The notes: generated by a model from the letters alone, not told the origin. A stretch of DNA of 62,519 nt from an uncultured bacterium (GCA_964400165.1 CAYNSX010000003.1:1-62519), one strand, 5' to 3'. Counted from the stretch's first letter, positions 36 to 16,294 are shown. Translations and numbers: made by a program.

Positions 36-1514
36 TCAAATGCCGAATGGGTTGATCGGCCGGCTGCCGTGATAGATGAGCACATTCTTCGTCTCGGTGT
101 ACGAACGAATCGTCTCGAGCGCATGTTCGCGCCCGAAGCCGGAGTGTTTGTAGCCGCCGAAGGGCATGCCCGGCATCGTGGTGAACGGGGTGTTGAGACC
201 GATGGTGCCCGCCTGAAGCGCGGCGGCGACGCGGTGGCCGCGGCGCAGGTCGTTCGTCCAGACGCTGGCGGCGAGGCCGTAGCGCGAGTCATTGGCGAGC
301 GCGATGGCTTCATCCTCGGACTCGAAGCGCTGGAAGACGGCGACCGGACCGAAGATTTCTTCCTGCGCCACCGTCATCTTGGGGTTGACGCCGTCGAGGG
401 CTGTCGGCGCGTAAAAATTGCCCTTGCCCGGGAGCGCCATTCCGCCGCAGGCGACGCGTGCGCCCTCCTTCACGCCGGCCTTCACATAGCCGTCGACCCG
501 CTCGAGGTGACCAGGGGAGATGAGTGCGCCGACATGCGTGCTCTCGTCGAGGGGGTCGCCGACTTTGAGCGCCTGTGCCCGCTCGATGAACAGGGTGACC
601 ACTTGATCGTAGACGCTCGCCTCGATGAGCACGCGGGAGCGCGCCTCGCACGATTGCCCCGCCGAGTAATAGATGCTCCACACCGCGGCCGAGACGGCCT
701 CGTCCAGACTCGCGTCGGCGAAAATGAGGTTCGGCGACTTGCCGCCGAGTTCGAGCGTGACGCGCTTGATGGTGCCGGCGGCGTGCTGCATCACGCGCTG
801 GCCGGTGGTCGTCTCGCCGGTGAAACTGACCTTGTTCACATCGGGGTGCGCGACGAGATAGTCCCCCACGACGCCGCCGGAGCCAGTGATGACATTGACA
901 ACGCCCGCGGGAATGCCGGCTTCGAGCGTCAATTCACCGAGCACCAGTGCGGTGAGCGGCGTGAGCGAGGCGGGCTTGAGCACGACCGTGTTGCCCGCGG
1001 CGAGGGCGGGAGCAAGTTTCCACGAGGCGAGCATCAGCGGGTAGTTCCAGGGGATGATGAGCGCGCAGACTCCGACGGGCTCACGCAGCGTGTAATCGAG
1101 GAAGCCCTTGGGCGCCGGGATGGTAGCGCCGGACAATTCACTCATGGCGCCGGCGTAGAGTTCGAAATCTTCGATGGACTGGTTGAGTTCGAGTTTGACA
1201 GATGAGATGGCCTTGCCGTTGTTGAGCGTTTCGAGGCGGGCGAGGTCGTTGAACCGGTCGCGCATCAACCCGGCGAGTTTGAACAGCGCCCGGCTGCGGG
1301 CGAGCGGCGCGAAGCGCGCCCACTTGCCGGTCAGCGCGGCCTTGGCGCTGGAGACCGCATGCTCGGCGTCTTCGGCGACCGCCCGCGAGACGCGCGCCAG
1401 CGGCTCGTTGGTAGCGGGATTGTGCACCTCATAGGTCTCGCCGGCGGCGCTGGGCTTCGATTCGCCGTTGATGAACAGGTGGTAGTCGGTGCGTTCGAGC
1501 GATGCGGCGGCCAT
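36..1514 (-). CDS. NAD(P)+-dependent aldehyde dehydrogenase in the paa cluster
   Basis: 492 aa; IIPWNYP, KPASLTP, FTGETTTG, catalytic Glu in LELGGKSP, catalytic Cys in GQSCEA, EEIFGPV, PFGGYKHSGFGRE. Confidence 0.93.
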   Translation of the reverse strand: MAAASLERTDYHLFINGESKPSAAGETYEVHNPATNEPLARVSRAVAEDAEHAVSSAKAALTGKWARFAPLARSRALFKLAGLMRDRFNDLARLETLNNGKAISSVKLELNQSIEDFELYAGAMSELSGATIPAPKGFLDYTLREPVGVCALIIPWNYPLMLASWKLAPALAAGNTVVLKPASLTPLTALVLGELTLEAGIPAGVVNVITGSGGVVGDYLVAHPDVNKVSFTGETTTGQRVMQHAAGTIKRVTLELGGKSPNLIFADASLDEAVSAAVWSIYYSAGQSCEARSRVLIEASVYDQVVTLFIERAQALKVGDPLDESTHVGALISPGHLERVDGYVKAGVKEGARVACGGMALPGKGNFYAPTALDGVNPKMTVAQEEIFGPVAVFQRFESEDEAIALANDSRYGLAASVWTNDLRRGHRVAAALQAGTIGLNTPFTTMPGMPFGGYKHSGFGREHALETIRSYTETKNVLIYHGSRPINPFGI

Positions 1515-1580
1515 CCCGGTCTCCGATGCTTGATGGTATTACGACGCGCGGTCGGTGAGTCCTGTCCGGGACTGCCCGAA

Positions 1581-1706
1581 CCGTCCTCACCCGGCCCCGG
1601 CGTTGCCGGGGCCACCCTCTCCCGAACTGGGAGAGGGAACTGATGCGACTATCTCTGTTGGTTCCCCCTCTCCCAGTTCGGGAGGGGGGTCAGGGGGTGA
1701 GGACGG
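1581..1706. repeat. Palindromic REP-like element, family B, copy 1
   Basis: Terminal inverted repeat CCGTCCTCACCC...GGGGTGAGGACGG; internal hairpins CCCTCTCCC-GAACT-GGGAGAGGG and CCCCCTCTCCC-AGTTC-GGGAGGGGGG; near-identical to 5511-5635. Confidence 0.85.
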
Positions 1707-1712
1707 ACAGAA

Positions 1713-2921
1713 TCACGGCCCCGCCAGGTTCTCGAACACCGCGGCGATGCCCTGGCCGACGCCGATGCACATGGTGACGAGGCCGTAGCGGCCCTGGCGG
1801 CGGCGCAGTTCGTGCAGCAGCGTCGTCGTCAGGCGGGCGCCGGTGCTGCCGAGCGGGTGGCCAAGCGCGATGGCGCCGCCGCTGACATTCAGGCGCGCCC
1901 GGTCGAGGTCGAGTTCCTGCACGCACGCCAGCACCTGCACCGCAAAGGCCTCGTTGAGTTCGATGAGGTCCATGTCTTCGATTTTCAGTCCGGCGCGCCG
2001 GAGCGCCTTGCGTGTCGCGGGCACGGGGCCGATGCCCATGCACGCCGGATCGACACCGGCGACCGCGGAGGCGACTACGCGCGCCAGCGGCTGCATTCCG
2101 AGCGCCTTGGCCTTCTCCGCGCTCATCAGCAAGAGCGCGGCGGCGCCGTCGTTCAGGCCGGCGGAGTTGCCGGCGGTGACGGAGCCGCTCTCGCGGAAGA
2201 CCGGCTTCAGTTTCGCCAGTTTCTCAAGCGAGGTGTCGCGGCGCGGGCCCTCGTCGGCGGTGACGGTGGTCTTCTCGCCGCGGGCGTCCTTTACTTCGAC
2301 GGGCACGATCTCGTCCGCGAAGCGGCCCGCGTCCTGCGCGGCGACGGCGCGTCGGTGGCTTTCGAGCGCGTACTCGTCCTGCGCCTCGCGCGCAATCTTC
2401 CAGCGCTCCGCCACATTCTCCGCGGTCTCGCCCATCGAATACGGGTAGTACTGCGCCGCCAGCGCCGGGTTGGTGAAGCGCCAGCCGAGCGCGGTGTCAT
2501 ATACGGGCACCTGCCCGCGGGGGAACGGCGTCTCTGCCTTCGGCATCGCCCACGGCGCCCTGGTCATGCTCTCGGTGCCGCCGGCGATGAAGCAGTCGCC
2601 GTTGCCGGTCTGGATGGCCTGCGCCGCCCGGATGACGGCGTCGAGACCGCTGCCGCACAGGCGGTTGACCGTCAGCCCGGCGACTTCGACGGGCAGCCCG
2701 GCGAGCAGAATGCACATCCGGGCGACATTGCGGTTGTCTTCGCCCGCCTGATTGGCGCAGCCGAGGATGACATCCTCGATGTCGGCGGGCGGAACCTTCG
2801 TGCGGGCGACAAGTTCCCGAATGACAAGGGCGCCAAGGTCGTCGGGGCGCACATCCTTGAGTACGCCGCCGTATTTTCCCACCGGCGTGCGCACGGCCCC
2901 CACGATGACGGCATCGGGCAT
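1713..2921 (-). CDS. paaJ: 3-oxoadipyl-CoA/3-oxo-5,6-dehydrosuberyl-CoA thiolase (PaaJ/PcaF type)
   Basis: 402 aa; [16 protein letters not shown], catalytic Cys in NRLCGSG, NEAFA, GHPLG, CIGVGQG; located in the paa cluster. Confidence 0.88.
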
Positions 2922-2931
2922 ACGGGGCAGT

Positions 2932-3894
2932 CTAGCCGCCGCGGGCGGGGCTCGCCAGCGCGGGCTCGGCCACGGGCGTGAAACGCACCGCCTGTTCGTC
3001 GCCGAAGCGGCGCGGGAAGACTTCGGGGTGGAGGATTTGCGCGAGAAGTTCGAGCCCGTCGACGAGCCGCGGGCCCGGTCGTGAGAAATAGGCGGAGCCG
3101 TGCGTCACCCAGATGTCGCCGCGCTGGACCGCGGGTAGTCCTTTCCACTCTGGTCTTTGCGCGAGTTGGCGCACATCGTCGAGCGAGCGCGGCACATCGA
3201 AGCCGCAAAACATACACACGAGGACTTCCGGCTGCGCGGCGACGACCTGCTCCCACTTGACGCGCCGCGAATCGACGCCGGGTGCGCCGAGCGCTTCGAC
3301 GCCGCCCGCCATTTCGACCATCCCCGGCACCCAGTGACCGGCGCAGAAGGGCGGGTCAGCCCACTCGAGGCAGACGACCCCCGGGCGGTGAGTGCCGCCC
3401 CAGGCGCCGACGCGCACCGCCTCGATGCGCGCTTGCAACGCGGCGACGACCGGCTCGGCGCGCTCCGGCGCGCCGACCGCCTGCGCCACTTGTTCGATGG
3501 ATGAGACGACATCTTCGAGCGAAGTCGGTTCCAGGTTGACGACGAGCGGCCGGGGGTTCAGGCGCTCGGCGACGGCGGCCACTTCGTCGTAGGGCACCGC
3601 GCAGACATCACACAGGCGCTGCGTCAAAATGACGGTCGGCTTCAGTTCGGCGAGCGCGGCCTCGTCGATGGCGTAGAGGCGGCCCTGGTGCTCGCTGACC
3701 AGATGGTCGATGGTGGCGCTGTCGCTGCCGTCGGGGATGTAACTCTTCGTGACCGCCCGCTTGCTGCGCGCCGCGGGCGGGAAGTCGCATTCGTGCGTGA
3801 CGCCGACCAACGCCTCGCCCAGCCCGAGCGCGAACACGATTTCGGTGGCGGAGGGGAGGAGGGAGACGATGCGCGAAGTTGACATCGTCCGCAT
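2932..3894 (-). CDS. BtuF-like / class III ABC substrate-binding ('cobalamin-binding') protein with no signal peptide
   Basis: [36 protein letters not shown]; start placed at ATG 3894 (or 3885) because the longer ORF start lies inside a repeat. Confidence 0.8.
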
Positions 3895-3899
3895 TGTAT

Positions 3900-4044
3900 C
3901 CCGGCGCTGAAAGCGCCGGGCTACAAGAACATCGCCCCATGAATGGGGCGGCACCGCGGATTAGTTGCAAGAACGGGATCGCATCAAGTGTTGAGCCGGC
4001 TTCAGCCGGCGTTGTTTTGTTAGCCCGGCCCTTTCAGGGCCGGG
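3900..4044. repeat. REP/REPIN-like element, family A, copy 1 (145 bp)
   Basis: Four hairpins: CCCGGCGCT-GAA-AGCGCCGGG, GCCCCAT-GA-ATGGGGC, GCCGGCT-TC-AGCCGGC, CCCGGCCCT-TTC-AGGGCCGGG; GTAG precedes the outer hairpin on the minus strand. Confidence 0.9.
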
Positions 4045-4066
4045 TCGGACGATGCGCCGATTCATC

Positions 4067-4211
4067 CCCGGCGCTGAAAGCGCCGGGCTACAAGAACATC
4101 GCCCCATGAATGGGGCGGCACCGCGGATTAGTTGCAAGAACGGGATCGCATCAAGTGTTGAGCCGGCTTCAGCCGGCGTTGTTTTGTTAGCCCGGCCCTT
4201 TCAGGGCCGGG
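4067..4211. repeat. REP/REPIN-like element, family A, copy 2 (exact tandem copy of 3900-4044)
   Basis: Base-for-base identical to 3900-4044 at an offset of 167, with a 22-bp gap. Confidence 0.92.
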
Positions 4212-4229
4212 ACACTGCGCGTCAACTGA

Positions 4230-5297
4230 TTACGCCTCCCACTCCCAAGGGCTCTCCGGCCAGTTGGCGCCGAGGCGCATCGCGGTGGCGATGTCGTCGC
4301 GGGTGGCGATGCCTTCGTCGGCGACGCGGGTCGCTTCGGCGACCAGTGCGGCGCGGATGCGCTGCTGGATGTGGCGGGCGTCGAGCGATGTGCTCCCCTC
4401 CCCCACCAGCCCAGGCGGCAGCGGCGCGGGGCCGATCGGCTTCTCGCTCTGGTCGTATTGATAGAAGCCGATGCGCGTCTTGCGGCCCAGCCGGCTCTCC
4501 GCAACGAGGCGCCGCTGGATGGGGTGCGGCGCAAAATCGGCGCGGCCGGTGGCGTCGTTGACGGTCTTCGTCACCGCCAAATTGACATCGAGGCCGATCA
4601 GGTCCATCAATTCGAACGGGCCCATCTTGAAGCCGAGGGCGCGCACCGCGGCGTCAATCTCCGCGATGCCGGCGCCGCCCTCGGCGAGGATGCGCATTGC
4701 TTCGAGGTAGAACGGGCGCATCACCCGGTTGACGATGAAGCCGGGCGTGTCCTTGACCACCACCGGCGTCTTCTGCAGCGCCCGCACGACGGCGAGCGCG
4801 GCGGCGATGCTCTCATCGCTCGTCTGCGGCGCCCGCACCACTTCGACGAGCGGCATCAGGGCGGGCGGGTTGAAGAAGTGCAGGCCGAGTACGCGCTGCG
4901 GCTTCTTGCAGACACCCGCGATCTTCGTCACCGAGAGCGCCGAAGTGTTCGTGGCGAGCAGGCCGGCGGCGTTGACGCTATCGAGTTCGCGGAAGACCGC
5001 CCGCTTTAGTTCCAGGTCTTCGAAGACGGCCTCGATGACGACCGCGCATTCCGCCAGGTCTTTGACTTCAAGCGCGGGCTGCAGCCGCCCGTAGGCGGCG
5101 TCGGCGTCCTCTTGCGTCAACATCCCCCGCTCCACCAACCGCGCCAAGCGGGCGCGGATGTGCTCGACGCCCTGCGCGGCGAGCGTCGGGTTGGCATCGC
5201 GCACCAGCACATCGAAGCCGCACTGCGCCGCCCACTGGGCGATGCCGCCGCCCATCGTGCCGGTGCCGATGACGGCGATGGGATGAGTTTCGATCAT
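4230..5297 (-). CDS. paaH: 3-hydroxyacyl-CoA dehydrogenase (PaaH type)
   Basis: 355 aa; GTGTMGGGIA Rossmann motif, EAVFEDLELK, ATNTSALS, GLHFFNP, PGFIVNR, MGPFELMDLIGLD. Confidence 0.85.
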   Translation of the reverse strand: MIETHPIAVIGTGTMGGGIAQWAAQCGFDVLVRDANPTLAAQGVEHIRARLARLVERGMLTQEDADAAYGRLQPALEVKDLAECAVVIEAVFEDLELKRAVFRELDSVNAAGLLATNTSALSVTKIAGVCKKPQRVLGLHFFNPPALMPLVEVVRAPQTSDESIAAALAVVRALQKTPVVVKDTPGFIVNRVMRPFYLEAMRILAEGGAGIAEIDAAVRALGFKMGPFELMDLIGLDVNLAVTKTVNDATGRADFAPHPIQRRLVAESRLGRKTRIGFYQYDQSEKPIGPAPLPPGLVGEGSTSLDARHIQQRIRAALVAEATRVADEGIATRDDIATAMRLGANWPESPWEWEA

Positions 5298-5358
5298 GGC
5301 GAGGTGAGTCTAGCAGAGGGCGATGAATGATGATTGATGAATGATGATTCACGAGCGA

Positions 5359-5500
5359 CCCGGCGCTGAAAGCGCCGGGCTAGGAAAACACCGCCCCATG
5401 AATGGGGCGGAACTGAACCACCTTATGTGACCCGCTCTGTGAGTCGTCACGCCGGCTTCAGCCGGCGTTGTTCTGTTAGCCTGGCCACTTCATGGCCGGG
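5359..5500. repeat. REP/REPIN-like element, family A, copy 3 (diverged)
   Basis: Same left hairpins CCCGGCGCTGAAAGCGCCGGG and GCCCCATGAATGGGGC; right hairpins GCCGGCTTCAGCCGGC and CCTGGCCACTTCATGGCCGGG; different central spacer. Confidence 0.88.
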
Positions 5501-5510
5501 TTGCTCGTTT

Positions 5511-5635
5511 CGTCCTCACCCGCCCTGCGCTGCGCTCCGGGCACCCTCTCCCGAACTGGGAGAGGGAACAGATGTCTTTGCCTCCGTTGGTTCCCCCTCT
5601 CCCTGTTCGGGAGAGGGGGTCAGGGGGTGAGGACG
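5511..5635. repeat. Palindromic REP-like element, family B, copy 2
   Basis: CGTCCTCACCC...CACCCTCTCCCGAACTGGGAGAGGGAAC...GTTGGTTCCCCCTCTCCC...GGGAGAGGGGGTCAGGGGGTGAGGACG; matches 1581-1706. Confidence 0.85.
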
Positions 5636-5642
5636 GAGGCAT

Positions 5643-5782
5643 CCGGCGCTGAAAGCGCCGGGCTAGGAAAACACCGCCCCATGAATGGGGCGAAACTGCA
5701 CTCCCCTACGCGACACGCGGTTTGAGTCGTCGAGCCGGCTTCAGCCAGCGTTGTCTTACTAGCCCGGCACTTCAGGGCCGGG
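5643..5782. repeat. REP/REPIN-like element, family A, copy 4 (diverged)
   Basis: CCGGCGCTGAAAGCGCCGGGCTAGGAAAACACCGCCCCATGAATGGGGCG ... GAGCCGGCTTCAGCCAGCG ... TAGCCCGGCACTTCAGGGCCGGG. Confidence 0.88.
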
Positions 5783-5783
5783 C

Positions 5784-6566
5784 TCATTCGCCCCGAAACT
5801 TCGGCTCTCGCTTTTCGAAGAAGGCCTGCACGCCTTCGTGGTGGTCGTGCGAGCGGCCGGCGATCTCCTGCAGGTAGGCCTCGTATTCGAGTTGGGCGGC
5901 GAGGTCGTTGGCGAAGGCAGCGTTCATCGCCCGCTTGACGAGGCCGAAGGCCTTGGTGGGGCCTCTCGCCAGCGTCGCGGCCATCTGCTGCGCGGCGGGC
6001 AGCACTTCGGCGGCGGGCACGACTTTATTGACGAACCCCCAGGCCAGCGCCTGCTCGGCGCTGATGCGCCCGCCGAAGAAAGCGACTTCGAGCGCCCGCG
6101 ACAGCCCCAGTTGCCGCAGCCAATGGAAGGTGCTGCCCGAATCGGGGACGAGCGCGACTTTGTCGAAGGCGGGCACGAGCGACGCTTCGGCGGCCATCAC
6201 CTTCAGGTCGCAGGCGAGCGCGGTGGCGAAGCCGGCGCCTGCGGCGACGCCGTTGATGGCGGCGATGACGGGCTTCTCCATCGTGCGGAGGCCGAGAATC
6301 ATCGGGTGATAGCGGCCGCGCAGGGCGGCGCCGAGCGTCAGTTCCGCTTCGCCGGCGTGCGAGGAGAGGTCCTCGCCGGCGCTGAAGGCGCGCCCGGCGC
6401 CGGTGAGTACCAAGCAGCGCACGGCGCGGTCCTTGGCGGCGTCGCGCAGGGCGGCGTTCACCTCACCGCCCATCTGGTCGTTGAAGGAATTGAGTTTGTC
6501 GGGGCGGTTGAGCGTCAGCGTGGCGACGCCGTCGGTGACTTCATAGAGGATCACTTCGAATTTCAT
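5784..6566 (-). CDS. paaG: Enoyl-CoA hydratase/isomerase, PaaG (1,2-epoxyphenylacetyl-CoA isomerase) type
   Basis: 260 aa crotonase; TLNRPDKLNSF, GRAFSAGEDL, NGVAAGAG, LVPDSGS (PaaG-type Asp), QLEYEAYLQEIAGRSHDHHEGVQAF. Confidence 0.8.
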   Translation of the reverse strand: MKFEVILYEVTDGVATLTLNRPDKLNSFNDQMGGEVNAALRDAAKDRAVRCLVLTGAGRAFSAGEDLSSHAGEAELTLGAALRGRYHPMILGLRTMEKPVIAAINGVAAGAGFATALACDLKVMAAEASLVPAFDKVALVPDSGSTFHWLRQLGLSRALEVAFFGGRISAEQALAWGFVNKVVPAAEVLPAAQQMAATLARGPTKAFGLVKRAMNAAFANDLAAQLEYEAYLQEIAGRSHDHHEGVQAFFEKREPKFRGE

Positions 6567-7030
6567 TTCTTTCCCGCCTTTTCAATGAACTTTCGGAGAC
6601 TCGAAAGTCGATAGTGTCCCTTTCGTTGCAATTCTTTCTTCGCCGCAACCGTCAAGTTCAGGTCTCCCCATTTTTTAATTGCGGCACCGAACCGCTCTAG
6701 AGCCTCCACTCCACCGATCCACAGAATCCGTGGCGCAGATGAGATGCGGCCGAAGCGCTCCACGCAGACCAGGATCCATTCTTCGGGACATTCACTGATG
6801 CGTTTGTAGTTGAAGCCCGTTGGATAGTGTCCCTTTCCTCCTACGAGCCCTTTCACCTGAACCTGGTAATAGCGGCGAGACCTCCCGCTGCTCACTGAAA
6901 TCAAGAAATCGACTCCCTCGTCATCGACCATCGGGCGAAACACCCGAAGCCCCGCGTCCAAGAGTGCCGCGGCGACATAACTCTCCGCCAAAGCACCCTT
7001 CCACTGTGAACTCGGTTCCGGCTTGCGCAT
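6563..7030 (-). CDS. Small PD-(D/E)XK endonuclease-like protein, about 155 aa
   Basis: KGALAESYVAAAL (helix Glu), VDDEGVDFLI (PD motif), YQVQVKG (QxK); AT-richer than flanks (28/60 GC in line 6601); stop overlaps paaG start (ATGA). Confidence 0.75.
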   Translation of the reverse strand: MRKPEPSSQWKGALAESYVAAALLDAGLRVFRPMVDDEGVDFLISVSSGRSRRYYQVQVKGLVGGKGHYPTGFNYKRISECPEEWILVCVERFGRISSAPRILWIGGVEALERFGAAIKKWGDLNLTVAAKKELQRKGHYRLSSLRKFIEKAGKK

Positions 7031-7043
7031 GGTCACCAAAGGC

Positions 7044-8216
7044 TCAGAACACCCTTTGCAGCCAGCCGCGCTCCCACCAGTCGGCGGCGGCGAGCAGGTG
7101 CGGCGTCGGCTCGAGGAGTTGCACCGCCGGGCCGCCGTCGGCGAAGAAATCGCCCGCGACGGCGCCCGCGTCGCGCCAGCTGGTCTGGACATAACACAGC
7201 CCACTGGCGTCGAAACGCGCTTCGGGCTGCTTGCCGGTGATTTCGGCGGCGATGTTCTCGGCGACGGTTGTGCCGGCAGCCGCGGCGAAGACCGCCGACT
7301 TCGGCAGCGGCTTCGGGCCGCTGGTTGGGATGCTGGTGCAGTCGCCGATGGCGTAGACGCGTTCGAAGTCGGTCGCCAGCGTGCGCTGCTGCACCTTGAT
7401 CCAGCCGCCCTCGCAGCCGAAGGCGTCGCGCACGACCGGCGGCGCGGCGTGCGGCGGGATGAGCAGCAAGAAGTGAAACTTGAACGACGCGCCGTTCTCG
7501 AAGTTCACATACTTGCGGGTGATGTCGATGTCCTTGATGGCGTGGCCGGGATGGAAGGCGATGCCAACCTCGCTCAACATCGCCTGCATGCGCTCGCTCC
7601 CCGCATCGGGCAGCGTCGGGAGCGCCCGCGCTTCTGGCGTGAACAGGTGCATCCGCACGCGCACGCGATGGTCGCGCCACTTGAACAGCCAGTGCAGCAT
7701 CATCCCGATTTCGTACGGCGCGGGCGGGCACTGGTAGGGCGTGCCGGCGATGATGATGAGTAGTTCGCCGCCATCGAAGGTGTCGAGGAACGCGCCGGTG
7801 GCGATGGCGCCGTCGAGCGAATACGGCGTGTGAATGGGCAGCGGGTCGCCGCCTTCTTTGTGCACATCGAGGCCGGGGATGCGCTGCGGCTCCAGCGCTG
7901 CGCCGAGCGACACGACCAGGTAATCGGCGCGCAGTTCCTCGTCGCCGAGGCGGATGGCGCGCGCCTTCGGGTCGATCGCCGTCACCTCGGCCTGGCGGAA
8001 GTCGATGTTGCGCTTCGCCAGGTCATTGAGATCGCGCACGATGTCGGCGGGGCGCTTGGTGCCGAGCATCACGCCCACCTTTGAGTGGCCGAGGTTGTGG
8101 CGCTTGTCCTTAGCGACGAGCGTGATGTTGTGTTCCGCGCCGAGGAGCGCTCGCAGGCGCGTCGCCGCGGTGACGCCGCCCGGTCCGCCGCCGAGCACGA
8201 GGATGTTGGCGCCCAT
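7044..8216 (-). CDS. FAD-dependent oxidoreductase, sulfide:quinone oxidoreductase/FCSD-like family
   Basis: 390 aa; ILVLGGGPGG, YQCPPAPYE, VYAIGDC, LPKSAVFA, GLCYVQ; start overlaps paaF stop. Confidence 0.85.
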   Translation of the reverse strand: MGANILVLGGGPGGVTAATRLRALLGAEHNITLVAKDKRHNLGHSKVGVMLGTKRPADIVRDLNDLAKRNIDFRQAEVTAIDPKARAIRLGDEELRADYLVVSLGAALEPQRIPGLDVHKEGGDPLPIHTPYSLDGAIATGAFLDTFDGGELLIIIAGTPYQCPPAPYEIGMMLHWLFKWRDHRVRVRMHLFTPEARALPTLPDAGSERMQAMLSEVGIAFHPGHAIKDIDITRKYVNFENGASFKFHFLLLIPPHAAPPVVRDAFGCEGGWIKVQQRTLATDFERVYAIGDCTSIPTSGPKPLPKSAVFAAAAGTTVAENIAAEITGKQPEARFDASGLCYVQTSWRDAGAVAGDFFADGGPAVQLLEPTPHLLAAADWWERGWLQRVF

Positions 8217-9004
8217 CAGTCCCCCGTGAACTCCGGCTTGCGCTTCTCGAAGAAGGCGTCCATGCCCTCTTTCTGGTCGCTCGTCGAGAAGAGGAGATAG
8301 AACATCCGGCGCTCGTAGTCGAGGCCCGCTTCGAGACTGGTATCGAAGGCCTTGAGCACCGACTCTTTCGCCGCCCGGATGGCGACGGGCGACTTGGCCG
8401 CAATCTCCTCCGCCAGTTTGCGCGCCTCCAGCATCAGCACTTCTTTCGGCACGACGCGCGTCACCAGCCCGCGCGCCCAGGCCTCTTTCGCCGGCAGGCG
8501 GACGCCGGTCATCACCATCTCCATCGCCTTTGCCTTGCCGATGGCGCGGGTCAGGCGCTGCGTCCCGCCGGCGCCGGGGATAACGCCGATGTTGATCTCC
8601 GGCTGGGCGAAGAAGGCGTCCTCGGCGGCGACTATGAGGTCGCAGGCCATCGCCAGTTCGCAGCCGCCGCCCACCGCATAGCCGGCGACTGCGGCGATGA
8701 TGGGCTTGCCGATCTTGCGCAGCCGCTCCCAGCGCATCCCGAACGGCCCGCGCAGGAACTCGGCGGGCGTGTGGTGGTGCATCTCCTTGATGTCGGCGCC
8801 GGCGGAAAAGAAGTCGGGCCCGCCGGTGACGATCATCACGCGGATAGCCGGGTCCCGGTCGAAGCGTTCGAGCGCCGCCACCAGCGCCTCCATCGTCTCG
8901 CCGTTGATGGCGTTGCGCACCTGCGGGCGGTTGATGGTGACGAGGCCGAGGCGGCCCTCGGCGGCGGTCAGGATGACATCAGCGGGTGCGGCGGCGGCGG
9001 GCAT
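8216..9004 (-). CDS. paaF: Enoyl-CoA hydratase (PaaF type)
   Basis: 262 aa; FSAGADIKE, both catalytic Glu (GGGCELA, QPEINIG), PGAGGTQRL, DQKEGMDAFFEKRKP. Confidence 0.83.
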   Translation of the reverse strand: MPAAAAPADVILTAAEGRLGLVTINRPQVRNAINGETMEALVAALERFDRDPAIRVMIVTGGPDFFSAGADIKEMHHHTPAEFLRGPFGMRWERLRKIGKPIIAAVAGYAVGGGCELAMACDLIVAAEDAFFAQPEINIGVIPGAGGTQRLTRAIGKAKAMEMVMTGVRLPAKEAWARGLVTRVVPKEVLMLEARKLAEEIAAKSPVAIRAAKESVLKAFDTSLEAGLDYERRMFYLLFSTSDQKEGMDAFFEKRKPEFTGD

Positions 9005-9101
9005 AGGCGCTCCTTCGCTATCGAAGGCAGATTCCGTAGAGGCTGGCAGATTCCTGCGAATCGGGGAGATGAGCGAGGAGAGATGAGAGAGAAAAGCGGG
9101 G

Positions 9102-9359
9102 CTAGTCGGTCTCGATCACAGCGACTTTGGTGGAAGGCCGGGGAATCGGTTGTCCGTCCTCTTTGAGCCCATCGATGTGCATCGCAAGAGCCGACCGAAT
9201 GCGACGCAGGACATCGGCCTTGGTGGGTGCGGTTGCGACGCACCCAGGTACATCGGGCAGGTAGGCCGAGAAATTTCGTTCGGCTCTCTCAATGACGACG
9301 GCGTATTTGGTTTTCCTGCCTCCCCGCCTCCCTGCCTTCCTTTGTCCCTTCCCTTTCAC
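9102..9359 (-). CDS. HicB-family antitoxin domain (solo, no DNA-binding domain)
   Basis: YAVVIERAERNFSAYLPDVPGCVATAPT...ALAMHIDGLKEDGQPIP; GTG start overlaps paaD stop (GTGA). Confidence 0.8.
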   Translation of the reverse strand: MKGKGQRKAGRRGGRKTKYAVVIERAERNFSAYLPDVPGCVATAPTKADVLRRIRSALAMHIDGLKEDGQPIPRPSTKVAVIETD

Positions 9360-9856
9360 AGCGGCTTCATCGCCTCGAAGGGCTGGCGGCAGGCGTCGCA
9401 GATGGCAATCATCCGGCAGAGCGTCGGGCCGAAGGGCGTGTCGAGGCGGGTCTGCTGCGAGCCGCAGTGCGGGCAGGTGAGCGGCTGCGCCAGCGCTTCC
9501 TGCGCGGTCGGCGCGGCGGGGTTGGGCGGGGCGATGCCGATGTCGCGCAGTTTGCGGCGTGCGGGTTCCTCGAGCCAATCCGACGACCAGGGCGGCGAGT
9601 AAGTCACCTCGATGGTCACTTCGCGGAAGCCGGCGCGCTCGAGCGCGACGCGCGTGTCGCGCTGCATCATCTCGAACGCCGGACAACCGATGAAGGTGGG
9701 CGTCAGCACGACGCGCACACTGTCACCCGTCACCTCGACTTCGCGCACCACCTTCAACTCAACAAGCGTCAGGACGGGGATTTCGGGGTCGACGACCCCG
9801 CCCAGCGCCGCCCAGGCGGCGCCTTCGTCGGGGATGGTCTGCAGCGTGGCGCTCAC
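9356..9856 (-). CDS. paaD: Phenylacetyl-CoA epoxidase subunit PaaD (SufT/DUF59-like)
   Basis: VVDPEIPVL, TPTFIGCPA, PPWSSDW, CPHCGS...FGPTLC...CDACRQPFEAMKPL. Confidence 0.92.
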   Translation of the reverse strand: MSATLQTIPDEGAAWAALGGVVDPEIPVLTLVELKVVREVEVTGDSVRVVLTPTFIGCPAFEMMQRDTRVALERAGFREVTIEVTYSPPWSSDWLEEPARRKLRDIGIAPPNPAAPTAQEALAQPLTCPHCGSQQTRLDTPFGPTLCRMIAICDACRQPFEAMKPL

Positions 9857-9872
9857 GCCGTCAGTGTAACCC

Positions 9873-10625
9873 CTACCAGGCGGCCTGGGGGATGAGCCGG
9901 CGCACCTGCTGCAGGTCGGTGAGGGCCTGCGTGAGTGCGGGCGTGTGCTGCCCGCGGCGGCCGCCGCAGCCGCTCTGCGGCTTCGGCGCCGGCGGCTGCA
10001 AGCCGGACTGCGTGAGCACCGGCACAACCAGAGCGAGCCACTGCGCGTGCAGCGCGGCGTTGCCGGCGAAGACGCCGTCGCGCACCAGGTCGCCCTCGTG
10101 TTCGAGCGGCTCGAAGATGCCGAAGGCGAGCGGGAACGCGGTGTCGAGCGCGGCGGTCATCCGCTGGTGGCTCTCCGCGGTAGCATCGCCGAGGCGCTCC
10201 ACCCAACTGTGCAGGTGCATCCAGTGGTAGGACTCCTCGGGGCGCACCTTGCCCGCCGCCTCGGCGAGCGGCGTGTAACTCGAATGCACCAGCGACGCGA
10301 GGCGCACCTGCTCGGCGGCGTCGAACAGAAACTGGCGCACGATGGTGAACGCCCAGTCGCCTTTCGGCTGTTCGACGAGGTGACAGCAGCGAAACGCCTC
10401 GGGGCCGCGCAGGAATGCCAGGTGATCGGGATCCTCGCCGCCGAGGTCCTGCCGCAGTTGATACCAGAGGAGCGCGTGGCCGATTTCATCCTGCGCCAGG
10501 TTCGAGAAGGCGATGTCCTCCTCGATGATGGGGGCATGGCCGGTCCACTCGCCGTCGCGGTGGCCGAGGAGCAGTTCGTCGTCCGCCATCGCCAGCAGCA
10601 ATTCCTTCAGGGCGTCATTCGCCAC
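9873..10625 (-). CDS. paaC: Phenylacetyl-CoA epoxidase subunit PaaC
   Basis: LLAMADDELLLGHRDGEWTGHAPIIEEDIAFSNLAQDEIGHA, KVRPEESYH; GTG start at 10625. Confidence 0.92.
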   Translation of the reverse strand: MANDALKELLLAMADDELLLGHRDGEWTGHAPIIEEDIAFSNLAQDEIGHALLWYQLRQDLGGEDPDHLAFLRGPEAFRCCHLVEQPKGDWAFTIVRQFLFDAAEQVRLASLVHSSYTPLAEAAGKVRPEESYHWMHLHSWVERLGDATAESHQRMTAALDTAFPLAFGIFEPLEHEGDLVRDGVFAGNAALHAQWLALVVPVLTQSGLQPPAPKPQSGCGGRRGQHTPALTQALTDLQQVRRLIPQAAW

Positions 10626-10917
10626 GCTTGGCCTTCTCGGTGCGCTTGAGCGGCGACAGGAAGCCCTGCGGTTCACGAAAACTCTTGTCCATCGAGCGGG
10701 CAAAGAACGGCTCGGACTGCGCCTGCGTGCTCGTCACGACATGGTCGGCGCGCACCACCCAGAGGCCGGTGCAGGGCTGGCGGCGGGTGAACTGGTCGCG
10801 AGCCATCTGCAGCGCCATCTCGGCGTCGGGGGCGTGCACCGCGCCGACATGGACATACGCTTCGCCGGTGCCGGGCTGATGAAAGACTTCCCACGCGGGC
10901 CACTGCGTGTCGGTCAC
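10615..10917 (-). CDS. paaB: Phenylacetyl-CoA epoxidase subunit PaaB
   Basis: WEVF...HVGAVHAPDAEMALQMARDQFTRR...LWVV...DKSFR. Confidence 0.93.
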   Translation of the reverse strand: MTDTQWPAWEVFHQPGTGEAYVHVGAVHAPDAEMALQMARDQFTRRQPCTGLWVVRADHVVTSTQAQSEPFFARSMDKSFREPQGFLSPLKRTEKAKRGE

Positions 10918-10944
10918 GAGGTCTTCACCGCGCGGCGAAAGGCA

Positions 10945-11034
10945 ACCCCTCCCCCAACCCCTCCCCGTTTACGGAGAGGGGCAGCAACAACTGCCACCCC
11001 ATCCCCAGCCCTTCCCCGTGCACGGGGAAGGGTG
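10945..11034. repeat. Two tandem palindromic units related to family B, between paaA and paaB
   Basis: CCCCTCCCCGT-TT-ACGGAGAGGGG and CCCTTCCCCGT-GC-ACGGGGAAGGG, each preceded by a C-rich tract. Confidence 0.7.
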
Positions 11035-11050
11035 ACGAAAACAGAGGTCG

Positions 11051-12028
11051 TCATCGGGCGCCGTTGGATTGCGCGTGCTTCGCGGCGTGGGCGGTCAGGG
11101 CTTCGCGCACCCACTCGCCGTCGGTGTGCGCCTTGCGGCGGGCGGCCATGCGTTCGGCGTTGAGCGGGCCGTCGCCCTTCACCACCCGCCAGAACTCATC
11201 CCAATCGGGCTGGGTGTAGCGCCACTTCCCGGTGGATTCGTCGTAGCCACAGTCCGGGTCGGGAATCGTGAGGCCGATGGAGCGGATTTGCGGGACAATC
11301 TTCTCGACGAACTCGTCGCGCAACTCGTCGTTGGTGCGCGTCTTCACTTTCCACTTCATCAGCGAGGCGGTGTGCACCGACGCCTTGTCGGGCGGGCCGA
11401 AGAGCATCAGCGCCGGATACCACCAGCGGTCGATCGAGCGCTGCGCCATTGCCTTTTGGTCGGGCGTGCCGGTCGCCAGCACATAAATGAGGTCGGCGCC
11501 CTGCTTCACATGGAAGGCCTCTTCGTAGCAGATGCGTTTCATCGCCCGCGAGTACGGGCCGTAGGAGCCCTGCGCCAGCATCGTCTGATTGAGGATGGCG
11601 GCCTCGTCGATGAGCCAGCCGATGGCGCCGACATCCGCCCACTCCGCAGCGGGGTAGTTGAAGACGCACGAATACTTCGCCTTGCCGGAGAGGAATTCGT
11701 CGAGCATCTCTTCGCGTGACCGCCCCAGCGTCTCGGCGGCGCGGTAGAGGAGCTGGCCGTGGCCGGCCTCGTCCTGCACTTTGGAGATGAGCGTCAGTTT
11801 CCGTCGCAGCGACGGCGCGTACGGAATCCAACCGCCTTCCGGCAGTTCGCCGACGATTTCGCTGTGGGCGTGCTGGCTGATGATGCGCAGCAGGCCGAGG
11901 CGGTATTCGTCGGGCATCCAGTCGGTGGGCTCGATCTTCTCGCCCGCGTCGATGCGGGCCTCAAACGCGGCAAGTTTGGCGTCGTACTCCGGGTCGCGTG
12001 TCTGGTCGTCGGTAGTCTGCGTGCTCAT
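11051..12028 (-). CDS. paaA: Phenylacetyl-CoA epoxidase catalytic subunit PaaA
   Basis: [56 protein letters not shown] di-iron ligands; start at ATG 12028. Confidence 0.95.
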
Positions 12029-12059
12029 GCCGCCTGATGATAGCAACTTTGCATCAGTT

Positions 12060-12087
12060 CCCACACTCTACACCCCACACCCGACAC
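12060..12087. repeat. Short tandem heptamer repeat (NNNACAC x4)
   Basis: CCCACAC TCTACAC CCCACAC CCGACAC in the intergenic gap. Confidence 0.6.
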
Positions 12088-12088
12088 C

Positions 12089-13054
12089 CTATTCCAGTTT
12101 CGCTCCGCATTTCCCGCAATGGGTGAACGACTCGGGCAGCGCGTCGGCGCCGCACTGCGCGCAGGTGCGCGTGTACGGCCCCCAGGGCAGCAGGTCGCGG
12201 CCCGCAGTGACGGCGTCGTGCATCTTGGCGTAATCGGGCTGGCGCTTTTCGAGGAACGCCGACATCCCTTCGGCGGTCTCGGGCATCGCGGAGTTGAGCG
12301 TCAGCCACTCGCGGGCGTGGCCGATGGTCAGCCCCCAGGCCAGGTGGCGCCAGAAGTTCATCTGTTCCTTCGTGTAGCGGATGGCGTTGGGCAGTTTCGC
12401 GTACACCATCTCGGCCATCTGCTGCACGGCGGCGTCGAGGTCTTTGCGGGGCACGACCTCATTGACCAGCCCCCACTCGAGCGCCTTCTGCGCCGGGATT
12501 TCCTCGCACAGGAAGAGAATCTCGCGCGCCCGGCGGTCGCCGACGATGAGCGGCAGGAACTGCGTCGCCCCCGCCGCGGCGACGGAGCCGCGGGCGGCGC
12601 CGATTTGGCGGATGTAAGTGTCGTCGGCCATCACGGCCAGGTCGCAGCCGATGTTGAATTCGTTGCCGCCGCCGACGACGATGCCGTTGATGCGGGCGAT
12701 GGTGGGCTTGCCGATGTTGCGCAGGCGGTCTTGCGCATCGAAGAACGCGCCAACCCACTTCCAGTAATCGTGCGGGTGGCGGGTCAGGCCCTCCATATCG
12801 TCCACATCGCCGCCGGTGGAAAATGCCTGGTCACCGGCGCCCGTCATCACCACGACCGCGACGGCATCATCCCAGGCGGCGTCGAGATAGGCGCGTTCGA
12901 GTTCGCGCAGCGTCTGATAGGCGAGCGCGTTGTGCTTCTCGGGCCGGTTGATGGTGACGCGCGCCAGCCAGCCCGACTTCTCGTAGCGGATGTGCGTAAA
13001 GCCGAACGACTCCGGCGCCTGCGCGGCGAAGCCGGTGCGGAAGGCGTCGGTCAT
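12089..13054 (-). CDS. Crotonase of the ring-cleaving hydrolase (BamA/Oah, BadI/MenB-like) type with a C-terminal zinc ribbon
   Basis: 321 aa; TGAGDQAFSTGGD, RINGIVVGGGNEFNIGCDL, QIGAARGSVAAAGATQFLP; C-terminal CAQC...HCGKC. Confidence 0.8.
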   Translation of the reverse strand: MTDAFRTGFAAQAPESFGFTHIRYEKSGWLARVTINRPEKHNALAYQTLRELERAYLDAAWDDAVAVVVMTGAGDQAFSTGGDVDDMEGLTRHPHDYWKWVGAFFDAQDRLRNIGKPTIARINGIVVGGGNEFNIGCDLAVMADDTYIRQIGAARGSVAAAGATQFLPLIVGDRRAREILFLCEEIPAQKALEWGLVNEVVPRKDLDAAVQQMAEMVYAKLPNAIRYTKEQMNFWRHLAWGLTIGHAREWLTLNSAMPETAEGMSAFLEKRQPDYAKMHDAVTAGRDLLPWGPYTRTCAQCGADALPESFTHCGKCGAKLE

Positions 13055-13975: not shown

Positions 13976-14277
13976 CCCTGCACCTCCGCGAAGACGAATG
14001 TGACCAGCCCTTTGGCGAAGCCCATCAGGTTGGCGCCCGCCGCCTTGCCTTCCTCGGACACCATCGCCGCCTGCATCTCCTGCGCCGACTCGAAATACAG
14101 TTCCGCCATCCGATAATACGGCGCCGGGTGGCCGGTGGGCGTGCCGGTGAAGCGCGTCGTCTCCAGCCGCACCAGGCCGGGCATCAGCCGCGCCAGGGGC
14201 ACATGCGTCTCGGTGTACTGGCGGTCGAAGCCGGCGGGGTCGTCGGGGCGGGTGAAGAGGGCGACGAGTTTGACCAT
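13972..14277 (-). CDS. EthD-family reductase
   Basis: MVKLVALFTRPDDPAGFDRQYTETHVPLARLMPGL...YYRMAELYFES; 101 aa. Confidence 0.88.
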   Translation of the reverse strand: MVKLVALFTRPDDPAGFDRQYTETHVPLARLMPGLVRLETTRFTGTPTGHPAPYYRMAELYFESAQEMQAAMVSEEGKAAGANLMGFAKGLVTFVFAEVQG

Positions 14278-16155: not shown

Positions 16156-16294
16156 AGAAATCTCCACGGCCACTATACTCCGACATGAGGCGGGGGCGAC
16201 TTGCGCTTGTGTCCCGCGCAGCAAGGGATTTCCCCGCGGCGTCGAATGAAGAGGCGACGCCCCGCCGACGGGGCGACGCCCTGGGAGGGTGGTC

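What the first reader, a model, noticed from the sequence alone, without database searches (positions are those of the whole stretch)
36..13054. paa cluster without paaZ: a crotonase-type ring hydrolase plus a stand-alone ALDH may replace the bifunctional PaaZ
Seen: the minus-strand run contains paaABCD, F, G, H and J but no PaaZ (ALDH-MaoC fusion) and no MaoC hydratase. The gene directly upstream of paaA (12089-13054) is a third crotonase, with motifs (TGAGDQAFSTGG, GGGNE, Q.G...GS...GATQFLP) that resemble ring-cleaving hydrolases of the BamA/Oah-BadI-MenB group, plus an unusual C-terminal CxxC...CxxC zinc ribbon. A separate ALDH (36-1514) lies at the far end. Known: oxepin-CoA ring opening in E. 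coli is done by the MaoC domain of PaaZ, followed by its ALDH domain. Inference: a non-orthologous crotonase + ALDH pair may do this step, or the cluster may process a different aryl-CoA.
Basis: partly seen in the sequence, partly recalled or inferred. Interest (0 to 1): 0.6.

Follow-up and report, generated by a model that had tools for sequence, protein, structure and literature searches.

The report
Crotonase-EthD pair replacing PaaZ hydrolase
An uncultured bacterium's phenylacetate-breakdown gene cluster lacks the usual ring-opening enzyme PaaZ and carries an unstudied crotonase family, nearly always encoded next to a small EthD protein, that is the best candidate to open the ring; the idea of such a replacement is already known, this family is not.

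Summary
The minus strand encodes EthD, a tandem-ABM protein, a 321-aa crotonase with a CxxC...CxxC tail, PaaABCD, PaaF, PaaG, a PaaH-like dehydrogenase, PaaJ and a stand-alone ALDH.

The 94%-complete genome has no PaaZ, no MaoC-type hydratase, no PaaE and only these three crotonases. PaaK lies on another contig.

The extra crotonase belongs to a compact family that is sister to MenB plus BadI. It lacks their Tyr/Asp/Tyr catalytic set and has instead the first catalytic Glu of enoyl-CoA hydratases (E132).

In related loci from about seven phyla:
- it follows an EthD gene in 28 of 32 loci;
- PaaF and PaaG lie in the same locus in 20 of 33;
- the same type of ALDH lies in the locus in 13 of 33.

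None of the 33 carrier genomes has PaaZ or the known alternative hydrolase NF046063.

Best reading (confidence 0.6): it is a non-orthologous oxepin-CoA hydrolase that works with the free ALDH.

A crotonase plus ALDH replacing PaaZ is a published idea (Teufel 2011 as cited by Price 2022; Price 2022). So this is a new variant, not a new kind.

Earlier first readers of this scan noted the same EthD/MenB-like crotonase module on other genomes. EthD's role is unexplained.

The parts
13972..14277 (-). EthD-family protein (101 aa), first gene of the cluster. Its stop overlaps the start of the next gene.
   Evidence: TIGR02118 86.7 bits against a cut-off of 30.5. PF07110. It is the only copy in the genome. 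A profile of the syntenic orthologs hits PDB 2FTR (BH0200) at 148 bits.
13070..13975 (-). 301-aa protein with an ABM-type domain. It is a passenger that splits the EthD-crotonase pair in this genome only.
   Evidence: PF03992 ABM 36.6 bits at residues 209-269. No homolog was found in the related loci at E 1e-10. Translation.
12089..13054 (-). Crotonase of the MenB/BadI-sister family (P0001, 321 aa). It is the candidate oxepin-CoA hydrolase.
   Evidence: PF00378 179 bits. It falls below every NCBIfam equivalog cut-off. The family is one clade with support 100/98. E132, G152 and S157 are invariant.
12107..12163 (-). C-terminal four-cysteine zinc-ribbon-like tail (C298, C301, C313, C316).
   Evidence: Translation. 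Weak PF24463 hit, 16.6 bits. Many homologs carry a precomputed PF24463 hit. The tail is present in the Armatimonadota, Vampirovibrionales and Chloroflexi members examined and absent in the Bacteroidota-, Calditrichaeota- and Actinomycetota-labelled ones. Modelled at pLDDT 77-85.
11051..12064 (-). PaaA, catalytic subunit of phenylacetyl-CoA epoxidase.
   Evidence: TIGR02156 463 bits against a cut-off of 280.
10615..10917 (-). PaaB.
   Evidence: TIGR02157 95.6 bits against a cut-off of 85.45.
9873..10703 (-). PaaC. The true start is probably later than the longest ORF.
   Evidence: TIGR02158 251 bits against a cut-off of 133.
9356..10027 (-). PaaD. The true start is probably later than the longest ORF.
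   Evidence: PF23451 Zn_ribbon_PaaD 65 bits and PF01883 58 bits.
8216..9004 (-). PaaF-type enoyl-CoA hydratase with both catalytic Glu.
   Evidence: PaaF model NF007239 301 bits. Glu at both hydratase positions. Groups with E. coli PaaF, support 97/91.
7044..8216 (-). FAD/NAD(P) pyridine-nucleotide-disulfide oxidoreductase inserted between paaF and paaG. It is a passenger or a possible electron donor; no PaaE exists in the genome.
   Evidence: PF07992 81.5 bits. Not found in the related loci. No PaaE in the genome.
5784..6566 (-). PaaG-type isomerase.
   Evidence: TIGR02280 is the best hit at 276 bits. Asp at the position of the E. coli PaaG Asp, and no hydratase Glu. Groups with E. coli PaaG, support 100/99.
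4230..5297 (-). 3-hydroxyacyl-CoA dehydrogenase (PaaH-like, short form).
   Evidence: PRK08268 388 bits and TIGR02279 326 bits. 43% identical to E. coli PaaH.
2932..3954 (-). Periplasmic binding protein (Peripla_BP_2), a passenger in the cluster.
   Evidence: PF01497 75.8 bits.
1713..2921 (-). PaaJ/PcaF-type 3-oxoadipyl-CoA thiolase.
   Evidence: NF006551 562 bits and TIGR02430 557 bits.
36..1514 (-). Stand-alone NAD(P)-aldehyde dehydrogenase. It is the candidate 3-oxo-5,6-dehydrosuberyl-CoA semialdehyde dehydrogenase.
   Evidence: PF00171 575 bits. It is not a PaaN type: 116 bits to TIGR02278 and 37 bits to TIGR02288. Homologs of 42-58% identity lie in 13 of the related crotonase loci.

Best explanation
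The cluster encodes an aerobic phenylacetyl-CoA pathway in which the bifunctional PaaZ is replaced by separate proteins. PaaK (on another contig) makes phenylacetyl-CoA. PaaABCD epoxidises the ring; the electron donor is unknown because there is no PaaE. PaaG isomerises the epoxide to oxepin-CoA. The 321-aa crotonase at 12089-13054 then adds water to the beta-carbon of oxepin-CoA. In this proposal its invariant Glu132 acts as the base and the crotonase oxyanion hole holds the thioester enolate, so the C-O ring opens. The free ALDH at 36-1514 oxidises the reactive semialdehyde to 3-oxo-5,6-dehydrosuberyl-CoA. PaaJ, PaaG, PaaF and PaaH finish the pathway. Shown here: the gene content, the absences, the family's phylogenetic position, its conserved residues and its conserved neighbours. 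Inferred: the substrate, the role of Glu132 and the pairing with the ALDH. The EthD protein encoded directly upstream in most carriers probably acts at the same step or on its unstable product, but its role is not resolved.
For: 1. Need. The genome has PaaA, PaaB and PaaC over cut-off, plus PaaD, PaaF, PaaG, PaaH, PaaJ and PaaK. It has no PaaZ, no MaoC or hot-dog hydratase and no NF046063 member. It has only three crotonases.

2. The other two crotonases are accounted for. One has both hydratase Glu and groups with E. coli PaaF. The other has the PaaG Asp and groups with E. coli PaaG.

3. Conserved neighbourhood. PaaF and PaaG homologs lie in the same locus as the crotonase, mostly directly after it, in 20 of 33 related loci from genomes labelled Vampirovibrionales, Chloroflexi, Bacteroidota/Kapaibacteria, Calditrichaeota, Alphaproteobacteria and Actinomycetota, and also in an Armatimonadota MAG. 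An ALDH 42-58% identical to this one lies in 13 of those loci. PaaABCD lies in the Actinomycetota loci.

4. Complementary distribution. None of the 33 carrier genomes has PaaZ over cut-off, and none of the 150 listed matches (16 more were not shown) reaches the MaoC part of the model. None of the 33 has NF046063. 21 of 33 have PaaA over cut-off and 5 more have a divergent PaaA-like gene.

5. Chemistry. The family keeps the oxyanion-hole motifs and an invariant Glu at the position of the first catalytic Glu of hydratases. It has lost the Tyr/Asp/Tyr set that MenB and BadI share.

6. Precedent. Crotonase-type oxepin-CoA hydrolases have been reported. ECH-Aa has weak activity. H281DRAFT_04594 is required for growth on phenylacetate (PMC9007349).
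Against: - No activity data exist for any member.
- PaaF-type hydratases could in principle hydrate oxepin-CoA themselves. ECH-Aa, a general crotonase, does so weakly (PMC9007349). That would leave this enzyme free for another task.
- The second hydratase Glu is missing (Gly152), so the proton-transfer partner is unknown.
- In 6 of 33 carrier genomes no PaaA-like gene was found. These are MAGs of unknown completeness.
- In 12 of 33 loci the crotonase, in most of them still with EthD (8 of the 12), sits away from other paa genes.
- The tight EthD coupling is not explained by a simple hydrolase model.
- About 6% of the genome is unassembled.
Confidence: 0.6

Rival explanations
1. PaaF or PaaG opens oxepin-CoA, and the extra crotonase supplies another CoA-ester step of the lower pathway. 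That step could be, for example, a dedicated 3,4- to 2,3-dehydroadipyl-CoA isomerase, or a hydratase for an unsaturated C8 or C6 intermediate.
For: - A general crotonase (ECH-Aa) has measurable oxepin-CoA hydrolase activity (PMC9007349).
- The family keeps one hydratase-type Glu.
- It usually lies just before PaaF and PaaG.
Against: - In E. coli, PaaG and PaaF cover those steps without a third crotonase. The only activity missing here is the PaaZ hydrolase.
- All 33 carriers lack PaaZ, which is not expected for a mere extra lower-pathway enzyme.
Confidence: 0.15
2. The crotonase, with EthD, is a BadI-like retro-Claisen hydrolase. It would re-open a cyclic beta-oxoacyl-CoA, for instance the dead-end by-product 2-hydroxycyclohepta-1,4,6-triene-1-carboxyl-CoA. 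That by-product forms when the semialdehyde is not channelled. This would be a salvage role, in place of the PaaY thioesterase.
For: - The family is sister to the MenB/BadI clade.
- Systems without the channelling PaaZ fusion should make more of the by-product (PMC7497051).
- The genome has no 4HBT-type thioesterase.
Against: - The Tyr97/Asp163/Tyr258 residues shared by E. coli MenB and three PGAP-named BadI proteins are all replaced in the family: by Arg/Lys/Asn/His, by Pro/Ala, and by Ala/Asn/Met/Ser.
- The oxepin-CoA hydrolase step would still be unassigned.
- An ALDH is still conserved in the clusters.
Confidence: 0.1
3. The module acts on a different ring-CoA substrate than phenylacetyl-CoA. 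The paa-like genes would form a related but distinct pathway.
For: - Some carriers have only a divergent single PaaA-like gene or none.
- One locus couples the module to a 2-oxoacid dehydrogenase complex instead of PaaK.
Against: - In this genome PaaA, PaaB and PaaC pass their equivalog cut-offs, and a PaaK scoring 501 bits (truncated by the contig end) is present.
- A 2-oxoacid dehydrogenase could simply make phenylacetyl-CoA from phenylpyruvate.
Confidence: 0.1
4. The crotonase is a MenB, the DHNA-CoA synthase of menaquinone synthesis.
For: The best NCBIfam, PDB sequence and fold matches are MenB.
Against: - Scores are half the cut-offs: 180 against 380 and 172 against 343.
- The catalytic residues are replaced.
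- tblastn finds no MenC, MenD or MenH in the genome.
- The neighbours are paa genes.
Confidence: 0.01

Closest known systems
Split ring-opening step of PaaZ-less phenylacetate degraders: a stand-alone ALDH (PacL of Azoarcus evansii) plus a separate enoyl-CoA hydratase (ECH-Aa). Teufel et al. 2011, as described in PMC9007349 and PMC7497051.
   Same: There is no ALDH-MaoC fusion. A free ALDH and a separate hydratase-fold protein stand in for it. The pathway logic is the same.
   Different: ECH-Aa was about 1000-fold better on crotonyl-CoA than on oxepin-CoA, and its physiological role is doubted (PMC9007349). The present crotonase is a dedicated family that is syntenic with paa genes. The ALDH here is not of the PaaN type: 116 bits to TIGR02278 and 37 bits to TIGR02288.
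Alternative oxepin-CoA hydrolase H281DRAFT_04594 of Paraburkholderia bryophila (Price et al. 2022, PMC9007349; NCBIfam NF046063).
   Same: It has the crotonase fold, is the third crotonase of a PaaZ-less paa system and is proposed for the same reaction.
   Different: It belongs to a different subfamily. P0001 scores 118 bits against a cut-off of 300. That enzyme lacks both hydratase Glu (PMC9007349), whereas this family keeps the first one. No EthD partner or zinc ribbon is reported for it.
MenB (1,4-dihydroxy-2-naphthoyl-CoA synthase) and BadI (2-ketocyclohexanecarboxyl-CoA hydrolase).
   Same: They are the closest sequence and fold relatives: 35-42% identity and the sister clade with support 100/99. 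They share Ser161 and Gly156 (E. coli MenB numbering).
   Different: Tyr97, Asp163 and Tyr258 are replaced, and Val136 is replaced by an invariant Glu. The gene context is different. About half of the members examined carry a zinc-ribbon tail.
PaaZ of E. coli (ALDH fused to a MaoC hot-dog hydratase).
   Same: It is proposed to do the same two reactions.
   Different: It has an unrelated fold for the hydrolase half and is a single channelling polypeptide. It is absent here.
BH0200 of Bacillus halodurans (PDB 2FTR), an EthD/TIGR02118 protein.
   Same: It is a close homolog of the EthD partner (148 bits to the profile). A Bacillales paa cluster with the order paaABCD-EthD-hydratase-ALDH is described for Exiguobacterium (PMC9416434).
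   Different: The PDB entry is named only by its locus tag, and I found no paper on it. Whether the Bacillales hydratase belongs to the present crotonase family was not tested.

Membership tests
Crotonase / enoyl-CoA hydratase superfamily (PF00378) | Pfam score over the gathering cut-off and the crotonase fold. | tested here: met
   179 bits against 27. AF2 model with pLDDT 80.7. The best PDB matches are crotonases, E 1e-20.
MenB (TIGR01929 / NF005637) | Score over the equivalog cut-off. | tested here: not met
   172 against 342.7 and 180 against 380.
MenB (TIGR01929 / NF005637) | Catalytic Tyr97, Asp163 and Tyr258 (E. coli numbering; the residue roles are from my own knowledge of the MenB literature). 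| tested here: not met
   In the window protein these are His93, Ala159 and Ser255. Across the family they are Arg/Lys/Asn, Pro/Ala and Ala/Asn/Met.
MenB (TIGR01929 / NF005637) | Presence of the classical men pathway (MenC, MenD, MenH) in the genome. | tested here: not met
   tblastn with the E. coli proteins gives no hit at E 1e-5.
BadI (TIGR03210) | Score over the equivalog cut-off. | tested here: not met
   177 against 467.6.
BadI (TIGR03210) | The Tyr/Asp/Tyr set shared with MenB, and a BadH/AliB-type gene context. | tested here: not met
   Three PGAP-named BadI proteins keep Tyr, Asp and Tyr; the family does not. BadI genes sit beside BadH, AliB or SDR genes. Here the neighbours are paa genes.
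Oah/BamA 6-oxocyclohex-1-ene-1-carbonyl-CoA hydrolase (TIGR03200) | Score over the equivalog cut-off. | tested here: not met
   123 against 464, and only residues 31-203 are matched.
Alternative oxepin-CoA hydrolase (NF046063) | Score over the equivalog cut-off. | tested here: not met
   118 against 300 for P0001. The window's PaaG and PaaF score 195 and 191.
PaaZ (TIGR02278) | An ALDH fused to a MaoC hydratase domain. | tested here: not met
   The best genome match is 144 bits against 563 and covers the ALDH part only. No PF01575 or PF13452 match in the genome.
Split ECH plus ALDH ring-opening system (functional class) | A paa pathway without PaaZ, with a third crotonase and a free ALDH in the cluster. 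| tested here: met
Split ECH plus ALDH ring-opening system (functional class) | Oxepin-CoA hydrolase activity of the crotonase and semialdehyde dehydrogenase activity of the ALDH. | not testable with these tools
   Needs enzyme assays.
PaaABC(D)E phenylacetyl-CoA epoxidase | PaaA, PaaB and PaaC over their equivalog cut-offs. | tested here: met
   463 against 280, 95.6 against 85.45 and 251 against 133.
PaaABC(D)E phenylacetyl-CoA epoxidase | The PaaE reductase subunit. | tested here: not met
   No TIGR02160 match in the genome. No tblastn hit with E. coli PaaE.
EthD family (TIGR02118 / PF07110) | Score over the cut-off. | tested here: met
   86.7 against 30.5 and PF07110 42.7 against 22.
DUF7577 zinc ribbon (PF24463) | Score over the gathering cut-off and four Cys ligands. 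| tested here: inconclusive
   The window protein scores 16.6 against 28, but all four Cys are present. Many homologs carry a precomputed PF24463 hit.

The most novel reading that the evidence does not exclude
EthD and this crotonase together form an obligate two-protein ring-opening module. It would be the main PaaZ-independent way of opening oxepin-CoA in uncultured bacteria of many phyla. EthD would supply a new kind of accessory function, for example tautomerising or handing over the unstable enol/semialdehyde product so that it does not cyclise to the tropone precursor.
Probability: 0.25. Interest if true: 0.7.

Novelty: new variant of a known kind. Interest (0 to 1): 0.5.

Why it matters
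Price et al. (2022) wrote that the oxepin-CoA hydrolase of PaaZ-less phenylacetate degraders had not been identified. They proposed one crotonase family, for Burkholderia.

This work points to a second, unrelated crotonase family with clear genomic signatures:
- an EthD partner;
- PaaF-PaaG-ALDH synteny;
- one retained catalytic Glu;
- no PaaZ in any carrier examined.

The family would fill the same gap in members of seven or more phyla, most of them uncultured. It would improve pathway prediction for aromatic catabolism in metagenomes.

The ring-opening step is also the branch point to tropone natural products. A non-channelling two- or three-protein version may therefore behave differently from PaaZ.

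The concept itself is not new, so the gain is a testable candidate rather than a new principle.

Tried and rejected
- Complex prediction of the crotonase with EthD: no verdict (score 0.00, below the mark). It is not used as evidence either way.
- Sampling 200 genomes of the window's own phylum: none carries the family. Sampling 300 Actinomycetota around carrier G022: one other carrier. The family is therefore too patchy for a random-sample co-occurrence test. In one search only 7 crotonase candidates per genome were scored, so some may have been missed.
- Search of 1.84 billion representatives and cluster look-up: the family is compact, with 18 representatives scoring 290 bits or more. No cultured carrier was named. 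The only named cultured hit (Pseudonocardia, 224 bits) lies outside the family range.
- Plasmid collection: the best matches are 42% identical or less and are BadI-like or generic crotonases in alicyclic-acid contexts. None is a family member.
- Literature: I found no paper on this crotonase family, on EthD in the paa pathway beyond a passing mention (PMC9416434), or on BH0200. The primary Teufel 2011 paper could not be opened and is cited only through PMC9007349 and PMC7497051.
- Fold search of the AF2 model: it only re-finds MenB and crotonases. No coordinates were available to inspect the active site.
- EthD as a simple PaaE substitute: considered and weakened. 3 of 33 carriers keep the EthD-crotonase pair alongside a near-cut-off PaaE-like gene. 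Several carriers with no detectable PaaA still have the pair.
- The MenB reading: rejected.

Full report
WHAT IS THERE

The window is the whole contig C3 of a 2.1-Mb, 58-contig assembly that is 93.9% complete. Earlier notes of this scan place it in uncultured Armatimonadota.

On the minus strand, from 14277 down to 36, lie these genes:
- an EthD-family gene (13972-14277; TIGR02118 86.7 bits against 30.5);
- a 301-aa ABM-domain protein (13070-13975);
- a 321-aa crotonase (12089-13054);
- PaaA, PaaB and PaaC (all over their equivalog cut-offs) and PaaD;
- PaaF (8216-9004);
- an FAD oxidoreductase (7044-8216);
- PaaG (5784-6566);
- a short PaaH-like dehydrogenase (4230-5297);
- a periplasmic binding protein (2932-3954);
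- a PaaJ-type thiolase (1713-2921);
- a 492-aa ALDH (36-1514).

WHAT IS MISSING

The genome has:
- no PaaZ. The best TIGR02278 matches are two ordinary ALDHs at 144 and 116 bits against a cut-off of 563;
- no MaoC domain (PF01575) and no PF13452 hot-dog hydratase;
- no PaaN_2;
- no member of the curated alternative oxepin-CoA hydrolase family NF046063;
- no PaaE;
- no 4HBT thioesterase.

It has exactly three crotonase genes, all in this cluster. A PaaK scoring 501 bits, cut by a contig end, lies on contig C22. So the pathway is otherwise complete. Unless the missing 6% of the genome hides a hydrolase, ring opening has to be done by one of the three crotonases or by an unknown fold.

WHICH CROTONASE

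- The gene at 8216-9004 has both catalytic Glu of hydratases and groups with E. coli PaaF.
- The gene at 5784-6566 has neither Glu, has an Asp at the position where E. coli PaaG has one, and groups with E. coli PaaG.
- The third, P0001, is below every equivalog cut-off: MenB 180 against 380 and 172 against 343, BadI 177 against 468, Oah 123 against 464, NF046063 118 against 300.

In a maximum-likelihood tree, 41 members of the P0001 family form one group (support 100/98). That group is sister to E. coli MenB plus three PGAP-named BadI proteins (100/97). The two groups are separated together from PaaF and PaaG (100/99). Only one MenB was included, and no Oah, BoxC or NF046063 sequence, because I could not obtain them by reference.

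ACTIVE SITE

Aligned to E. coli MenB:
- MenB and BadI share Tyr97, Ser161, Asp163 and Tyr258.
- The family keeps only the Ser.
- At the other three positions it has Arg/Lys/Asn/His, Pro/Ala and Ala/Asn/Met/Ser.
- Where MenB and BadI have Val136, all 41 members have Glu (E132 in the window protein). This is the position of the first catalytic Glu in PaaF.
- The second hydratase Glu is Gly (G152), as in MenB.

Other invariant, family-specific residues are P94, K99, W100, N131, Q165, R174, R175, R177, W235, R248 and W250. Y97 and H246 are nearly invariant.

This pattern fits water addition to a beta-carbon, which is hydratase-like. It does not fit MenB/BadI-type Claisen or retro-Claisen chemistry.

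An AF2 model (pLDDT 80.7) is a crotonase whose nearest solved folds are MenB. The zinc-ribbon tail is modelled with pLDDT 77-85.

COMPARATIVE GENOMICS

A protein search finds more than a hundred homologs of 59-66% identity. All have generic annotations, and many carry the PF24463 ribbon.

In 33 family loci from reference genomes, plus two from MAGs:
- PaaF and PaaG homologs lie in the same locus as the crotonase, mostly directly after it, in 20 of 33 loci.
- An ALDH 42-58% identical to the window's lies in 13 loci.
- PaaH and/or PaaJ homologs lie in most of those loci.
- The Actinomycetota (Gaiellaceae-type) loci also hold PaaABCD.

The records are labelled Vampirovibrionales, Chloroflexi, Bacteroidota, Kapaibacteria, Ignavibacteria, Calditrichaeota, Alphaproteobacteria, Actinomycetota, Armatimonadota and Ardenticatenaceae. 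One Alphaproteobacteria label is doubtful, because that locus encodes Por_Secre_tail proteins.

The zinc ribbon is confined to the Armatimonadota, Vampirovibrionales and Chloroflexi members examined, so it is an accessory.

Across the 33 carrier genomes:
- none has PaaZ over cut-off, and none of the 150 listed matches (16 more were not shown) reaches the MaoC part of the model;
- none has NF046063;
- 21 have PaaA over cut-off, one has it split at contig ends, 5 have only a divergent PaaA-like gene inside the cluster, and 6 have none detected;
- only 3 have a near-cut-off PaaE-like gene.

THE EthD PARTNER

A profile built from three EthD genes finds an EthD gene on the same strand, ending 0-181 bases before the crotonase match, in 28 of the 32 reference-genome loci that have upstream sequence. 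It is also present in both MAG loci, one of them 919 bases away.

Some loci consist of little more than a hot-dog thioesterase, EthD and the crotonase.

In the window the pair is split by the ABM gene. EthD His25 and Leu28 are invariant.

The EthD profile hits PDB 2FTR (BH0200 of Bacillus halodurans) at 148 bits. The PDB entry is named only by its locus tag, and I found no paper on it. An Exiguobacterium paa cluster with the order paaK-ABCD-EthD-hydratase-ALDH is described in PMC9416434. TIGR02118 rings in Haloferax volcanii among the 14 control genomes.

What EthD does is open. It is not a simple stand-in for PaaE, because three carriers keep both.

COMPARISON WITH WHAT IS KNOWN

The principle is published.
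- Many bacteria encode separate ECH and ALDH proteins instead of PaaZ (PMC7497051).
- ECH-Aa has weak oxepin-CoA hydrolase activity (Teufel 2011, as cited in PMC9007349).
- Price et al. 2022 identified by fitness data a crotonase required for phenylacetate use in Paraburkholderia and proposed it as the hydrolase. They noted that the enzyme of PaaZ-less bacteria had otherwise not been identified (PMC9007349).

The present family is a different crotonase lineage, with a different residue pattern and a different constant partner.

I found no paper on this family in the library searched. That library lacks most subscription journals.

First readers of this scan have flagged the same module on many other genomes. 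In the entries shown to me, no follow-up had settled its function.

VERDICT

The extra crotonase with the free ALDH is the best candidate for the PaaZ function (confidence 0.6).
- The reasoning from ring-cleaving motifs does not hold at the catalytic-residue level.
- The concept is already known.
- The most informative new facts are the EthD coupling and the strict absence of PaaZ in all carriers examined.
- Classification: new variant of a known kind. Interest 0.5.

Noticed in passing
window 7044-8216 (-): An FAD/NAD(P) pyridine-nucleotide-disulfide oxidoreductase, most like type III sulfide:quinone reductases (192 bits, below cut-off), sits between paaF and paaG and overlaps the paaF stop. 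The genome has no PaaE. It may feed electrons to PaaABCD or may be a passenger. It is not found in the related loci.
   Followed up: partly
window 5298-5783: The 486-base gap between paaG and paaH is filled with nested inverted repeats, and a block of about 50 bases occurs twice (5359-5410 and 5643-5692). It looks like the REP/MITE-like hairpin elements noted elsewhere in this genome (e1-967006).
   Followed up: partly
window 9102-9340 (-): A small HicB-like antitoxin domain (PF15919, 36 bits) is encoded between paaD and paaF, in the tail of the 9102-9686 ORF. No HicA partner was looked for.
   Followed up: no
window 6563-7040 (-): A short ORF between the FAD oxidoreductase and paaG has its stop overlapping the paaG start and a weak DUF4365 hit (E 7e-4). 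It may be a real small gene of unknown role.
   Followed up: no
window 14353-16374 (-): A long ORF with no Pfam or NCBIfam hit lies in a lower-GC stretch (0.62). It has a probable lipoprotein-like signal around residues 95-104 and sits directly upstream of EthD. Its function is unknown.
   Followed up: no
L012:3551-4423 and loci of G001, G003, G005, G010, G021: Vampirovibrionales, a Chloroflexi and one other carrier have only a single divergent PaaA-like di-iron gene (100-135 bits to TIGR02156) inside the EthD-crotonase-PaaF-PaaG cluster, with no PaaB, PaaC or PaaD. This matches the 'solo di-iron oxygenase' variant reported earlier in this scan.
   Followed up: partly
L018:1061-17013: One carrier joins a 2-oxoacid dehydrogenase complex and a lipoate ligase to the series thioesterase-EthD-crotonase-PaaF-PaaG-ALDH-NmrA. 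This suggests phenylacetyl-CoA is made from phenylpyruvate without PaaK. No PaaA was detected in that genome.
   Followed up: partly
L053:4995-5780 (Rhodococcus jostii RHA1 plasmid pRHL3): A crotonase branching at the base of the MenB/BadI group has Glu at the MenB Val136 position and lacks MenB Tyr97, Asp163 and Tyr258. This is the same pattern as the family studied here. Its operon contains an acyl-CoA dehydrogenase, a thiolase and CoA-transferases.
   Followed up: no
G000 genome-wide: No 4HBT-type hot-dog thioesterase (PF03061) is detected in the whole 2.1-Mb genome, although this family rings in 12 of 14 control genomes.
   Followed up: no
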